Under the pieces are notes generated by a model, which saw nothing but the letters and a program-made list of their open reading frames with translations, did not search any database and was not told the origin of the DNA. Source: Promethearchaeota archaeon (lineage in GTDB: Archaea; Asgardarchaeota; Lokiarchaeia; Sigyniarchaeales; SOKP01). From it: a DNA stretch of 32,000 nt. Both the position numbers and the translations under genes were made by a program. This document shows positions 21,560 through 23,782 of the stretch, in pieces. Each line of letters opens with the position of its first letter. Position 1 is the first letter of the stretch. The stretch spans positions 270,001-302,000 of the forward strand of contig JAUWGH010000001.1 in NCBI GenBank assembly GCA_030606485.1. Reading direction: 5' to 3'.

Positions 21560-22810
21560 TTGGAAGTAAATCCATTTGAAAACGCAAAAAAACAACTTGC
21601 TCTCGTTGCTGAAAAAATGGGCTTAAATCCCGATATTCATAAGTTTTTACAAAGTGTAGAACGTTCTTTGATTGTTAAAATACCTATTGTTATGGATGAT
21701 GGTCATCTTGAAATTTTCGAAGGATATCGTGTTCAACATAGCTTGGTTCGTGGTCCTGGTAAGGGTGGTGTTCGATTTAATCCTCAAGTAACTCTCGATG
21801 AGGTAAAAGCTTTAGCCATGTGGATGACTTGGAAGTGTTCATTACATAATCTCCCACTTGGGGGAGCTAAGGGTGGAGTTTGTTGTGATCCGAAGAAATT
21901 ATCGAAAAGAGAAATTGAGAGGATAACCAGACGATATACAGCTGAAATTATTAGTATCATTGGTCCAGATAAAGATATACCAGCACCAGATGTCGGCACA
22001 GGTGGAGAACATATGGCTTGGATGATGGATGTATATTCGATGCAGCATGGAAAAACAGTTCCTGGCGTTGTAACGGGAAAACCAATCGAGATTGGAGGCT
22101 CCCCGGGAAGAAGTGGAGCGACAGGTACGGGATTGTTTTTTGTAATTGAAAGAGCTTGTGAAAAGATGAATATAGACCTAAATGGTTTAACTGTAACCAT
22201 CCAGGGATATGGAAAAGTTGGTAAGAAGATTGTTAAACTGTTATCTAAACGAGGTTGTAAAATTTTAGCCGTTACTGATTCACGTGGTGGGGTTTATTCT
22301 GAGAATGGCTTAGATGTTGATAAATTATTGGAATGGAAGGAACAGGGAAATTCTGTTAGAGATTTTAAAGGTGACTCTTTAAAGCAAATTACAAATGAAG
22401 AAATATACACAATTAAATGTGATTTAATAATTCCTGCAGCTATGGAAAACCAGGTAACAGAGAAGAACGCTGACCAAATAGATTGCAAAATAATTGCAGA
22501 AGGGGCAAATGGTCCGATCACTCTAGAAGCAGACAAAATCTTAGAAAAGAAAGGTATAGTTGTCCTTCCAGATATTCTTGCTAACGGAGGAGGTGTGATC
22601 GTTAGTTATTTTGAATACGTTCAAGACATAAATGCTTATTATTGGGATTTGGAGAGAGTGAATAAGGAACTAAAGAAAATTATTCTTGATGCATTTGAAA
22701 ATGTATATAGTATTGTTAAAGAAAAAAATATCTCTTACAGACTAGCAGCATATATGATTGCCGTCTCAAGAGTTGCGAGGGCAATTGAATTACGGGGAAT
22801 TTTTCCTTAA
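21560..22810 (+). CDS. gdhA: Glutamate dehydrogenase (Glu/Leu/Phe/Val dehydrogenase family)
   Basis: GYRVQHS, KGGVRF, GGAKGG, DIPAPD, VVTGKP, QGYGKVG, EGANGP and PDILANGGG. TTG start 5 nt after AAGTGAT. Confidence 0.96.
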   Translation: MEVNPFENAKKQLALVAEKMGLNPDIHKFLQSVERSLIVKIPIVMDDGHLEIFEGYRVQHSLVRGPGKGGVRFNPQVTLDEVKALAMWMTWKCSLHNLPLGGAKGGVCCDPKKLSKREIERITRRYTAEIISIIGPDKDIPAPDVGTGGEHMAWMMDVYSMQHGKTVPGVVTGKPIEIGGSPGRSGATGTGLFFVIERACEKMNIDLNGLTVTIQGYGKVGKKIVKLLSKRGCKILAVTDSRGGVYSENGLDVDKLLEWKEQGNSVRDFKGDSLKQITNEEIYTIKCDLIIPAAMENQVTEKNADQIDCKIIAEGANGPITLEADKILEKKGIVVLPDILANGGGVIVSYFEYVQDINAYYWDLERVNKELKKIILDAFENVYSIVKEKNISYRLAAYMIAVSRVARAIELRGIFP

Positions 22811-22923: not shown

Positions 22924-23069
22924 TCGCACTAAATTTCTGAGTTCGGAAAGGGATCAGGTTTTTCCAACATCCTATGACCGTTAACGAATTAACAGTTTAC
23001 AGTTTCCCAATAATCGCAATATCAGTACTATCTGTAACGATATGTTGTTTAACTTCCAGTCTAGTGCGA
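22924..23069 (-). other. Bulge-helix-bulge-like processing stem enclosing the permuted 5S
   Basis: Leader TCGCACTAGA (23069-23060) pairs with trailer TTTAGTGCGA (22933-22924) over 10 bp, one of them G-U. Central 4-bp helix CTGG/TCAG. 3-nt bulges AAG (23055-23053) and AAA (22936-22934). Confidence 0.85.
22935..23053 (-). rRNA. rrf: 5S rRNA gene, circularly permuted (3' half 23053-22989, TTCG linker 22988-22985, 5' half 22984-22935)
   Basis: Reordered halves give a complete 5S. Helix I: TTAACGGT/ACTGTTAA. Helix II: GGATGTTG/CAACATATC with a bulged A. Helix III and loop C: AACCTGA-TCCCTTTCCGAAC-TCAG AA GTT. Loop E: AGTA/GAA. Loop D: GCGA. Helix V: GTTACAG/CTGTAAAC. 115 nt plus the 4-nt linker. 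Confidence 0.93.
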
Positions 23070-23097
23070 AGTGCTATAAATTAATAATAAACCCTTT

Positions 23098-23105
23098 TAT
23101 TTTAA
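23098..23105 (-). promoter_or_regulatory. Candidate TATA box for the 5S precursor
   Basis: Minus-strand TTAAAATA preceded by purine-rich AAAAGTAAAA (BRE-like), 24-31 nt upstream of where the leader stem begins (about 23074). The AT-rich background makes this weak. Confidence 0.4.
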
Positions 23106-23242
23106 TTTTACTTTTTACATACTATTTTCAATCTAATTGTAATATTCCAGCGTTTATTATGAAAATTTTCCTTAAAACTCTTATTTTAGTTGATTTACTT
23201 TTAGAAAATTTAAATAGTTTTGAAAATAATCTTAAAATATCG

Positions 23243-23782
23243 ATGCCTAGTAAAATAATTGTATTTTTCAAACGTGTTGGGCGCAACTGGTTTCTAATTT
23301 TTATAATAGCCGTGATTTTCGTTTTTTTTATCGAACAGATATTAGCAATTTGGTTAGTGGGTATTGCACTAGTTCTATATTTGTTATCGTTTCTTCCTAA
23401 TATCTTCTTCAAGAGATCCTTAAAAGGAAAAATGATGGAATATTATATGATTGAAGAAGATACAATTGCTCATAAAATGAAAAAACCATTGAGAAAAATT
23501 AGAGAAACGTTATTTAAATTATCTCAAAAACAACGCAAAAAAACCTATCTAATTGTATATTTAGATAATAGATATATTTATTTTCACGAAGAAACTGTTA
23601 ATAAGTTTAATGAACTTTATAAAAAAGGATTTGGTGAGAAGGAAATTCTCGAGGGTATGAAAAAATACGATTTACAAACCAAATCGGAGGTCAAATATAT
23701 CTTGAATACTCTTAAGAAACATAATCGGCTACCAGAAAGAGAGATCTCTGTAAAAGAGTATAGAGATAAGGATAGATATTAA
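23243..23782 (+). CDS. Membrane-anchored protein of unknown function (2 N-terminal TM helices, basic cytoplasmic domain)
   Basis: Track ORF 23042-23782. The 5' part overlaps the 5S gene and its promoter and is low-complexity, so ATG 23243 (MPSKIIVFF) is the likelier start. Confidence 0.75.
   Translation: MPSKIIVFFKRVGRNWFLIFIIAVIFVFFIEQILAIWLVGIALVLYLLSFLPNIFFKRSLKGKMMEYYMIEEDTIAHKMKKPLRKIRETLFKLSQKQRKKTYLIVYLDNRYIYFHEETVNKFNELYKKGFGEKEILEGMKKYDLQTKSEVKYILNTLKKHNRLPEREISVKEYRDKDRY

What the first reader, a model, noticed from the sequence alone, without database searches (positions are those of the whole stretch)
22935..23053. Circularly permuted 5S rRNA gene
Seen: the minus strand reads GTTAAACAACATATCGTTACAGATAGTACTGATATTGCGATTATTGGGAAACTGTAAACTGTTAA (65 nt, the 3' part of 5S), then TTCG, then TTAACGGTCATAGGATGTTGGAAAAACCTGATCCCTTTCCGAACTCAGAA (50 nt, the 5' part). 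Swapping the halves gives all five helices, loop C (CCGAAC), loop E (AGTA/GAA), the helix II bulged A and a GNRA loop D. The gene is intact and stands alone between gdhA and a membrane-protein gene. Established: gene-level permutation is known for tRNAs (Thermofilum, some algae) and for SRP RNA in Thermoproteus. I am not aware of a described gene-level permuted 5S rRNA, but I cannot search to confirm this. Inference: standard rRNA predictors would report only fragments, so this could be overlooked in related genomes.
Basis: partly seen in the sequence, partly recalled or inferred. Interest (0 to 1): 0.95.

Follow-up and report, generated by a model that had tools for sequence, protein, structure and literature searches.

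The report
Circularly permuted 5S rRNA gene
This Lokiarchaeia (Asgard) archaeon encodes its only 5S ribosomal RNA back half first, between flanks that fold into a tRNA-splicing cut signal, so a normal 5S sequence can form only by cutting and rejoining, probably into a small ring, which explains why standard tools find no 5S gene in many Asgard genomes.

Summary
Window 22935-23053 (minus strand) reads 3' part of 5S (65 nt), a UUCG cap, then the 5' part (50 nt). It is the only 5S-like locus in a 100%-complete 3.75 Mb genome.

Rfam's 5S model scores it 28.9 bits, below the 38-bit cut-off, and aligns only the 5' half. After rotation it aligns end to end with colinear 5S of the sister family.

The flanks form a canonical bulge-helix-bulge (BHB) motif: a 10-bp outer helix, 3-nt bulge, 4-bp helix, 3-nt bulge. 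Cutting after the second bulge base and ligating rebuilds the canonical helix III junction.

The genome encodes two splicing-endonuclease paralogs and RtcB ligase.

A model of the permuted core finds one full-length copy in 118 of 131 genomes of the same family, and in many other Asgard families. These families complement those with a normal 5S. Covariation supports all helices and the BHB. Relatives show a second breakpoint in loop C and a 30-nt BHB intron there.

No RNA data could be laid, so ligation and the ring as end product remain inferred.

I found no paper describing this. This scan has already noted the same thing on other Asgard DNA (241 notes, at least 133 genomes).

The parts
22935..23053 (-). 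Permuted 5S rRNA, 119 nt between the two predicted BHB cut sites
   Evidence: Model R1 scores it 95.4 bits. Rotation test. Covariation.
22989..23053 (-). 3' part of 5S, 65 nt: lower helix III strand (GU), helix II 3' strand, helix V, loop E, helix IV, GCGA loop D, helix I 3'-side strand
   Evidence: (profile positions 49-114).
22985..22988 (-). UUCG tetraloop that closes the 8-bp helix I where a normal 5S has its two ends
   Evidence: (always a tetraloop in relatives: UUCG 26, UUUG 13, UUAG 12 and others).
22935..22984 (-). 5' part of 5S, 50 nt: helix I 5' strand, loop A (CAUAG), helix II 5' strand, helix III, loop C
   Evidence: RF00001 positions 1 to about 57; profile 3-57.
23060..23069 (-). 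Leader strand of the 10-bp outer BHB helix (processing stem)
   Evidence: Covariation of this helix across genera.
23056..23059 (-). Leader strand (CUGG) of the 4-bp central BHB helix
   Evidence: 100% paired in 39 sequences, with CG/UA covariation..
23053..23055 (-). 5' bulge AAG; predicted cut between 23054 and 23053, so G23053 is the first retained base
   Evidence: Geometry. Cut position is the standard BHB rule (after the second bulge base), from established knowledge.
22937..22940 (-). UCAG: central BHB helix strand in the precursor and helix III 3' strand in the mature RNA
22934..22936 (-). 3' bulge AAA; predicted cut between 22935 and 22934, so A22935 is the last retained base
22924..22933 (-). 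Trailer strand of the 10-bp outer BHB helix
22907..22912 (-). Run of six T about 12 nt past the stem: likely archaeal terminator (inferred)
   Evidence: Read. Not tested.
23075..23110 (-). A+T-rich stretch with TATA-like boxes upstream of the stem: candidate promoter (inferred; start site not resolved)
   Evidence: Read. Not tested.
21560..22810 (+). Neighbouring gdhA (Glu/Leu/Phe/Val dehydrogenase), convergent with the 5S gene
23042..23782 (+). Neighbouring ORF with hydrophobic segments and no Pfam match. The mechanical start overlaps the 5S gene by 12 nt, so the real start is probably a later Met.

Best explanation
This is the organism's functional 5S rRNA gene, circularly permuted at the DNA level.

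It appears to be its own transcription unit. The leader and trailer of the transcript pair into a processing stem that carries a canonical BHB motif.

The tRNA-splicing endonuclease would cut in both 3-nt bulges. The genome has two paralogs of this enzyme, one with and one without the catalytic histidine, which suggests a heterotetramer. RtcB would then join the two ends of the excised 119-nt piece.

The join recreates the continuous helix III strand (...CCGAACUCAGAA joined to GUUAAAC...). Helix I stays closed by the UUCG tetraloop. The product would be a covalently closed 119-nt ring with the normal 5S fold, and I propose the ring itself is the 5S of the large subunit.

Shown here: the permuted order, the fold, that it is the only 5S locus, the BHB geometry and its conservation, and the presence of the enzymes. 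Inferred: cleavage, ligation, and the ring as end product.

My odds are about 0.95 that the gene is real and functional, about 0.8 that BHB cutting and ligation occur, and about 0.6 that the ring is the final form.
For: The sequence and order are as described.

It is the only RF00001 hit in the whole genome (13 contigs, 100% complete) even at E<=10, and the only R1 hit.

In the rotation test the native locus gives two out-of-order partial hits and the rotated sequence gives one full-length hit of 59.6 bits.

RNAalifold, run blind on 19 sequences, recovers helices I (capped), II, IV and V; 20 of 28 pairs have compensatory changes. On 39 sequences the full fold, including helix III across the junction, is 94.1% paired against 78.1% shuffled and 35-45% slid, with 21 of 35 pairs compensatory.

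BHB: 10-bp outer helix, AAA bulge, CUGG/UCAG, AAG bulge. Canonical cuts give a 119-nt product with the canonical junction. The central helix is 100% paired in 39 sequences, with a leader C/U that covaries with the trailer G/A, 24 against 15. The outer helix run averages 4.62 bp, against 2.06 for mismatched leader/trailer pairs, and its first 3 positions are paired in 38-39 of 39 sequences with several pair types.

An unconstrained MFE fold of the 176-nt precursor forms the same stem, bulge, 4-bp helix and capped helix I.

Two EndA paralogs and RtcB are encoded.

The same layout with a BHB occurs in three other Asgard families, with outer helices of 8, 10 and 15 bp.

Relatives carry a loop-C breakpoint (type B) whose BHB also restores the canonical loop C. 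Others carry a 30-nt BHB intron in loop C whose removal restores CCGAA+CCCGG. The splicing machinery is therefore implied at three different 5S sites.

The cap is always a 4-nt loop on an 8-bp helix, which fits a retained structural cap.

A solved precedent exists: the permuted SRP RNA of Thermoproteus is cut by the splicing endonuclease and stays circular and functional (PMC4731332).
Against: No RNA evidence was obtainable here. No listed run holding the stretch is on record as RNA, and the four runs laid are DNA-like contigs, so cleavage, ligation and circularity are untested for this organism.

The inner helix of a strict hBHBh' motif is weak: at most GUU/AAC, and only if the leader bulge is read as 2 nt. 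The substrate is therefore of the relaxed type. The view that a heterotetrameric endonuclease accepts such substrates rests on knowledge from Crenarchaeota, not on a test here.

Sequence alone cannot separate a ring from a nicked or a re-opened molecule.

The promoter and transcription start are not resolved. One TATA-like box would place the start inside the outer helix.

Rfam's covariance model could not be run on the rotated sequence; a profile HMM stood in for it.
Confidence: 0.6

Rival explanations
1. Circular intermediate, linear end product. The RNA is cut at the BHB and ligated as above, but the ring is then opened at or near the UUCG cap, giving an ordinary linear 5S with free helix I ends. 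Permuted tRNAs of Cyanidioschyzon are matured this way, through a circular intermediate.
For: Permuted tRNA genes follow this route (Soma 2007, as cited in PMC4267664). Archaeal 16S and 23S rings are generally thought to be re-linearised (PMC12918454). Two relatives carry about 30-nt insertions in the cap (L026, L085), which would be harmless if the cap is removed.
Against: No processing signal is visible. The linker is always exactly a stable tetraloop on an 8-bp helix, not a variable spacer. No enzyme is known to open such a loop in 5S, whereas tRNA ends are made by RNase P and RNase Z, which recognise tRNA shape. The closest precedent, Thermoproteus SRP RNA, stays circular. Opening is not needed for the fold.
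Confidence: 0.15
2. Linear permuted or nicked 5S. The precursor is trimmed at the BHB or by other nucleases but never ligated. The ribosome then holds a 5S whose ends lie in helix III or loop C, held together by base pairing, as in the linear permuted mitochondrial 5S of brown algae.
For: A linear permuted 5S exists in nature (PMC4267664). Sequence data here cannot tell a nick from a join. Helices I, II, IV and V would hold the molecule together.
Against: The flanks are a full splicing-type BHB with covarying helices, not merely a trimming stem, and RtcB is encoded. In archaea, BHB cleavage products are normally ligated. The cuts fall so that the exact canonical sequence is restored at three different sites in relatives. 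In type B genes the nick would lie inside the conserved loop C.
Confidence: 0.17
3. Non-functional relic or assembly artefact. The locus would be a scrambled 5S pseudogene or a mis-assembly, and the true 5S gene is missing from the assembly.
For: The genome is in 13 contigs, and rRNA genes are often unassembled. RF00001 scores the locus below its cut-off.
Against: One full-length copy occurs in 118 of 131 genomes of the family, including single-contig genomes, and in other families. There is strong compensatory covariation. No colinear 5S turned up in those genomes. The same order lies inside 5-34 kb contigs of four further runs from one study.
Confidence: 0.02

Closest known systems
Permuted, circular SRP RNA of Thermoproteus tenax / T. 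uzoniensis (Plagens et al. 2015, eLife, PMC4731332)
   Same: A universal structured RNA is encoded with its parts in swapped order. The new termini lie in a motif cut by the tRNA-splicing endonuclease. Ligation restores the functional sequence, and in that case the ring is the functional end product. The canonical gene seemed to be missing from the genome.
   Different: It is a different RNA (SRP rather than 5S rRNA) and is limited to a few Thermoproteus species. Here the trait spans a large family and many Asgard lineages. Circularity was shown experimentally there and is only inferred here.
Circularly permuted tRNA genes (Cyanidioschyzon merolae, Soma et al. 2007; also reported in Thermofilum, from my own knowledge)
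   Same: The 3' half precedes the 5' half. A BHB is formed by leader and trailer, and processing goes through a circular RNA.
   Different: In tRNAs the ring is re-opened by RNase P and tRNase Z at the linker to give a linear tRNA. Here the linker is a tight tetraloop with no evident processing signal.
Permuted mitochondrial 5S rRNA of brown algae (Valach et al. 2014, PMC4267664; Rfam RF02547 mtPerm-5S)
   Same: It is a 5S rRNA whose native ends are closed into a hairpin, with new ends elsewhere. Standard 5S models miss or truncate it.
   Different: It is organellar. The new ends lie at the three-way junction, not in helix III or loop C. There is no BHB and no ligation, and the product is a linear permuted RNA.
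BHB-dependent circular pre-16S/23S rRNAs, circular or permuted 23S in archaeal ribosomes (PMC7758197; PMC12918454)
   Same: An rRNA processing stem carries a BHB, is cut by EndA and ligated by RtcB, and in some lineages the ring (23S) is reported to stay in the ribosome.
   Different: Those genes are colinear, so circularisation is not needed to restore sequence order. The literature states that 5S is not processed this way (PMC12918454).

Membership tests
5S rRNA (Rfam RF00001) | Scores at or above the family's gathering cut-off (38 bits) on the covariance model | tested here: not met
   The native order scores 28.9 bits, with only the 5' half truly aligned. This is the expected result for a permuted gene. 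The model could not be run on the rotated sequence.
5S rRNA (Rfam RF00001) | Full-length colinear similarity to bona fide 5S once the parts are put in order | tested here: met
   A profile HMM of nine colinear 5S genes of the sister family hits the rotated sequence at profile positions 5-113, 59.6 bits, E 6e-20. The native locus gives two out-of-order partial hits.
5S rRNA (Rfam RF00001) | Three-domain fold (helices I-V) supported by covariation, with conserved loops A, C, D and E | tested here: met
   94.1% of cells paired and 21 of 35 pairs with compensatory changes. CAUAG, CCGAAC, AGUA...GAA and GCGA are present.
5S rRNA (Rfam RF00001) | Is the genome's 5S, with no other copy, and is part of the large subunit | tested here: inconclusive
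   It is the only locus in the genome. Presence in ribosomes is not testable with these tools.
BHB-processed permuted RNA genes (permuted tRNA, Thermoproteus SRP RNA) | 3' part encoded upstream of 5' part, with native ends joined by a short linker | tested here: met
BHB-processed permuted RNA genes (permuted tRNA, Thermoproteus SRP RNA) | Leader and trailer form helix / 3-nt bulge / 4-bp helix / 3-nt bulge | tested here: met
   The inner helix h' is weak or absent, so the motif is of the relaxed type.
BHB-processed permuted RNA genes (permuted tRNA, Thermoproteus SRP RNA) | Cuts at the canonical bulge positions plus ligation restore the canonical RNA sequence | tested here: met
   In silico, the junction ...CCGAACUCAGAA+GUUAAAC... 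equals the colinear 5S sequence. The same holds for type B genes and for the loop-C intron in relatives.
BHB-processed permuted RNA genes (permuted tRNA, Thermoproteus SRP RNA) | Splicing endonuclease and RtcB ligase encoded | tested here: met
   Two PF01974/PF02778 proteins (199 and 206 aa) and one RtcB.
BHB-processed permuted RNA genes (permuted tRNA, Thermoproteus SRP RNA) | Junction-spanning (circular) RNA detected | not testable with these tools
   No RNA run holding the stretch was listed. The runs that were laid are DNA-like contigs.
mtPerm-5S (Rfam RF02547) | New ends at the junction of the alpha and gamma domains, helix I replaced by a terminal hairpin, linear product | tested here: not met
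   The breakpoint here lies in the beta domain, between the helix III 3' strand and GUUAAAC. RF02547 was not reported at E<=10, although clan competition may have hidden it.

The most novel reading that the evidence does not exclude
Most Asgard archaea outside a few lineages (the family that appears to hold the cultured Lokiarchaeum and Prometheoarchaeum, and two large families with normal 5S) build their ribosomes with a covalently closed circular 5S rRNA. The ring is made by the tRNA-splicing machinery from a permuted gene. The permutation looks old, because the same breakpoint is shared across classes. It is also evolutionarily mobile, with breakpoints and BHB introns moving within helix III and loop C, even within genera.
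Probability: 0.5. Interest if true: 0.9.

Novelty: new variant of a known kind. Interest (0 to 1): 0.85.

Why it matters
5S rRNA is universal and is normally the easiest RNA gene to find, yet authors of closed Asgard genomes reported that no 5S gene could be predicted (PMC8813620). A permuted, BHB-flanked gene resolves that gap.

It would make 5S rRNA, after tRNAs and SRP RNA, a further universal RNA whose gene order is repaired by the splicing machinery.

It contradicts the current statement that archaeal 5S, unlike 16S and 23S, is not processed through excision and circularisation (PMC12918454).

If the ring is the end product, it would be a natural ribosome with a circular 5S, in the closest archaeal relatives of eukaryotes.

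In practice, MAG quality standards that require a 5S gene under-score these genomes, and annotation pipelines need a permuted model.

Tried and rejected
- **RNA evidence.** No RNA holder was listed. The four runs that hold the stretch are DNA-like contigs of a related strain. They show the same order and no joints, so nothing can be said on expression or circularity.
- **Single-sequence MFE of the rotated 115-nt RNA.** It gives helix I but a non-canonical interior. I judged this uninformative for an A+T-rich RNA and relied on covariation.
- **Naive 'longest outer helix' BHB scan.** It often picks spurious A+T-rich pairings. Only hits at the offsets that restore a 119-123 nt 5S were used.
- **BHB search in the about 30-nt cap insertions of L026 and L085.** No convincing motif was found. 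Whether these inserts are spliced or retained is open.
- **Insert in helix IV / loop D of L025.** No BHB was found at the right place.
- **Sigma-70 promoter scan.** Not used, because it does not apply to archaea.
- **ARAGORN on the window.** No tRNA genes.
- **Pattern-scan hits.** The contig labelled Blautia (L129) shows no permuted core with the profile and is taken as a chance match.
- **Literature searches**. No paper on a permuted archaeal 5S gene was found. The library holds open-access papers and preprints only.

Full report
**Observation.** It is a 65-nt stretch equal to the 3' part of a 5S rRNA, then UUCG, then a 50-nt stretch equal to the 5' part.
- Rfam at gathering thresholds finds nothing in the 32-kb window.
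- A permissive scan reports RF00001 at 28.9 bits, below the 38-bit cut-off. The alignment is genuine only for model positions 1 to about 57; the rest is forced onto the downstream spacer.
- In the whole assembly (3.75 Mb, 13 contigs, 100% complete) this is the only RF00001 hit even at E<=10. No colinear 5S gene is present.

**Rotation test.** I built a profile from nine colinear 5S genes of the sister family (loci L002-L010).
- The native locus gives two partial hits in the wrong order: profile 49-114 upstream of profile 3-57.
- The rotated sequence gives a single hit over profile 5-113, at 59.6 bits and E 6e-20.
- The reverse experiment agrees. Searching the window's permuted core against relatives gives colinear full-length matches in the same family and swapped half-matches in the sister family.

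**Fold.**
- RNAalifold on 19 permuted cores from 12 genera and three families, with no structure supplied, recovers helix II, helix V, helix IV and a helix I closed by the linker. 20 of 28 pairs carry compensatory changes.
- On 39 distinct full-length sequences I counted the complete 5S fold, including helix III whose strands meet only across the predicted join. 94.1% of cells are paired, against 78.1% in shuffles and 35-45% when partners are slid by 1-3 columns. 21 of 35 pairs have changes on both sides.
- The two pairs that span the join never vary, so they say nothing either way.

**The flanks form a splicing motif.**
- Leader 23060-23069 pairs with trailer 22924-22933 (10 bp, one G-U pair).
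- A 3-nt bulge (AAA, 22934-22936) follows on the trailer side.
- Next comes a 4-bp helix: leader CUGG 23056-23059 with UCAG 22937-22940.
- A 3-nt bulge follows on the leader side (AAG, 23053-23055).
- This layout matches the BHB of archaeal tRNA introns, with each strand's bulge 3' of its central-helix strand. I checked that geometry against the canonical 37/38 intron position, from established knowledge.
- Cutting after the second bulge base on each strand releases exactly 22935-23053. Joining its ends gives ...CCGAACUCAGAA+GUUAAAC..., the sequence of a normal 5S at that place (compare the colinear genes printed).
- An unconstrained MFE fold of the 176-nt precursor forms the same stem, bulge, 4-bp helix and capped helix I.

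**The BHB is conserved and covaries.**
- In 39 type A sequences the central helix is paired in 100% of cells. The leader's second base (C or U) changes together with the trailer's G or A, 24 against 15.
- The leader strand is therefore kept complementary to the trailer. It is not a decaying copy of it.
- The outer helix averages 4.62 consecutive pairs, against 2.06 when leaders are matched with trailers of other sequences. Its first three positions are paired in 38-39 of 39 sequences, with several pair types.
- In most genera other than the window's own, a short outer helix is followed by a small leader hairpin and then a 9-13 bp distal leader/trailer stem. In the window's genus the long stem abuts the BHB directly.

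**Enzymes.**
- The genome encodes two proteins with the tRNA-intron endonuclease N- and C-terminal domains.
- One, of 199 aa, has the Tyr/His/Lys pattern. The other, of 206 aa, lacks the His (my reading translations).
- Together they suggest a heterotetramer of the kind known in Crenarchaeota to accept relaxed BHB motifs. This step is inference from established knowledge.
- RtcB is present.

**Distribution.**
- A covariance model of the permuted core (R1) finds one full-length match of 82-112 bits in 118 of 131 genomes of the same family.
- It also finds a match in 1 of 1 and 3 of 4 genomes of two further families of the order.
- In the fourth family it gives only 31-35 bits. That family has ordinary colinear 5S genes at 53-69 bits on RF00001, some in tandem arrays. 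It contains single-contig genomes of 6,035,313 bp and about 4.4 Mb, the sizes I recall for Lokiarchaeum ossiferum and Prometheoarchaeum syntrophicum. That identification is inference from size only.
- Other orders of the class also carry the permuted form.
- In a phylum-wide sample the two states are complementary. R1 hits ten families, among them f8 (4/4), f24 (5/6) and f13 (3/5). RF00001 reaches its cut-off in other families (f12 26/26, f17 17/19 and others), and none of those hit R1.
- Three distant representatives, including complete genomes of 1.42 and 3.58 Mb, show the same breakpoint with BHB outer helices of 10, 8 and 15 bp.
- An exact-pattern scan of 185,579 species genomes returned 87 contigs (the 80 listed are nearly all Promethearchaeota or Promethearchaeia MAGs, that is Lokiarchaeota).

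**Variants in relatives that strengthen the mechanism.**
- About a third of the loci collected have a second breakpoint, type B, inside loop C (...ACCCGGUC | CCAUCCGAAC...). A BHB there again restores the canonical loop C.
- One sister-family genome breaks in loop B.
- Three GTDB genera contain both type A and type B genes.
- Many type A genes carry a 30-nt insertion in loop C that is itself a BHB intron. Its inner helix covaries, and its canonical removal restores CCGAA+CCCGG.
- The splicing machinery is thus implied at three different places of the same RNA.

**End product.** The cap is always a tetraloop on an 8-bp helix: UUCG, UUUG, UUAG, UACG, CUCG and similar. It shows no spacer or recognisable processing signal.
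- The simplest reading is that the ligated ring is the mature 5S. Its closest precedent is the circular SRP RNA of Thermoproteus (PMC4731332).
- Re-opening at the cap, as in permuted tRNAs, cannot be excluded from sequence. Neither can an unligated, nicked molecule.
- I could lay no RNA data. No run holding the stretch is on record as RNA. The four runs that hold it are long DNA-like contigs of a related strain, with the same gene order.

**Known or new.**
- Searches of the open library found no description of a permuted archaeal 5S gene.
- A paper on closed Heimdallarchaeum genomes states that 5S genes could not be predicted (PMC8813620).
- A 2026 paper states that archaeal 5S, unlike 16S and 23S, is not processed through circularisation (PMC12918454).
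- A partial precedent is the linear permuted mitochondrial 5S of brown algae (PMC4267664). It has a different breakpoint and no BHB.
- This scan has already reported the same phenomenon on other Asgard DNA, with 241 notes in at least 133 genomes. Two of those notes claim ring-junction reads in environmental RNA of related lineages, which I did not verify.
- Added here: the within-order contrast (permuted in three families, colinear in the fourth); the complementary phylum-wide distribution; the coexistence of two breakpoints and an intron within genera; and the covariation evidence for the BHB itself.

**Verdict.** The gene is real, is the organism's only 5S gene, and is built to be repaired by BHB cutting and ligation. 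Circularity as the final state is the most likely reading, but it remains untested here.

Noticed in passing
L031, L032, L039, L040, L061, L062, L077, L085, L137, L157 (5S loci of relatives): A 30-31 nt BHB intron sits in loop C of otherwise type A permuted 5S genes. The pattern is [UCCG]AA|A ... [CGGG]AA|C with a covarying inner helix, and removal restores the canonical CCGAA+CCCGG. In L040 the insert contains a partial duplicate of the neighbouring 5S segment.
   Followed up: partly
L012, L014, L018, L025, L034 and about 40 more loci (family f1, genera g2, g5, g7, g11): There is a second permutation breakpoint inside loop C (type B), again with a BHB. Genera g2, g7 and g11 contain both breakpoint types, so breakpoints move on short evolutionary scales. 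How they move is unexplained.
   Followed up: partly
L026 (about locus 1518-1652), L085; L025 (1546-1680): Insertions of about 30 nt occur in the helix I cap (L026, L085) and in helix IV / loop D (L025). I found no convincing BHB for them. They may be retained expansion hairpins or non-canonical introns.
   Followed up: partly
Leaders of most f1 loci, e.g. L018, L034, L016 (20-35 nt upstream of the 5' cut): A conserved small leader hairpin (GUAGC-loop-GCUAC, covarying) lies between the short BHB outer helix and a distal 9-13 bp leader/trailer stem with a conserved ...CCACA.../...UGUGG... core. Its role is unknown. It is absent or merged in the window's own genus.
   Followed up: no
G032:C1:1399892-1400758; G039:C66:1456-1934; G048:C1 about 856600-857650: The sister family with colinear 5S carries tandem 5S arrays of 2-3 copies spaced about 370 nt apart. 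Tandem duplication is the classical route between colinear and permuted gene orders.
   Followed up: no
L126 (DATKTW010000142.1, labelled Candidatus Nanopelagicaceae bacterium): This contig carries a genuine Lokiarchaeia-type permuted 5S core, close to L123 and L131, so it is probably mis-binned archaeal DNA in a bacterial MAG. Several other matching contigs are labelled Thor-, Odin-, Hermod- or Hodarchaeota by their submitters, although their 5S is of the Lokiarchaeia f1 type.
   Followed up: partly
L161-L163 (family f10 of the phylum), L167, L168: Family f10 hits neither R1 nor RF00001 above its cut-off. L162 shows 5S halves in swapped order at weak scores, while L161 shows only a weak 5' half. 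This may be a more divergent permuted 5S that needs its own model.
   Followed up: partly
G108:C109:5234-5384 (L069); G005:C51:21554-21594; G079:C211:1-82: A few genomes have weak second hits of the permuted model. These may be degenerate extra copies or contig-end fragments.
   Followed up: no
window 23042-23160 (+): The mechanical ORF 23042-23782 starts inside the 5S gene and runs through its leader and promoter region. Its first 40-70 codons are probably not translated; later Met codons precede the hydrophobic segments.
   Followed up: partly
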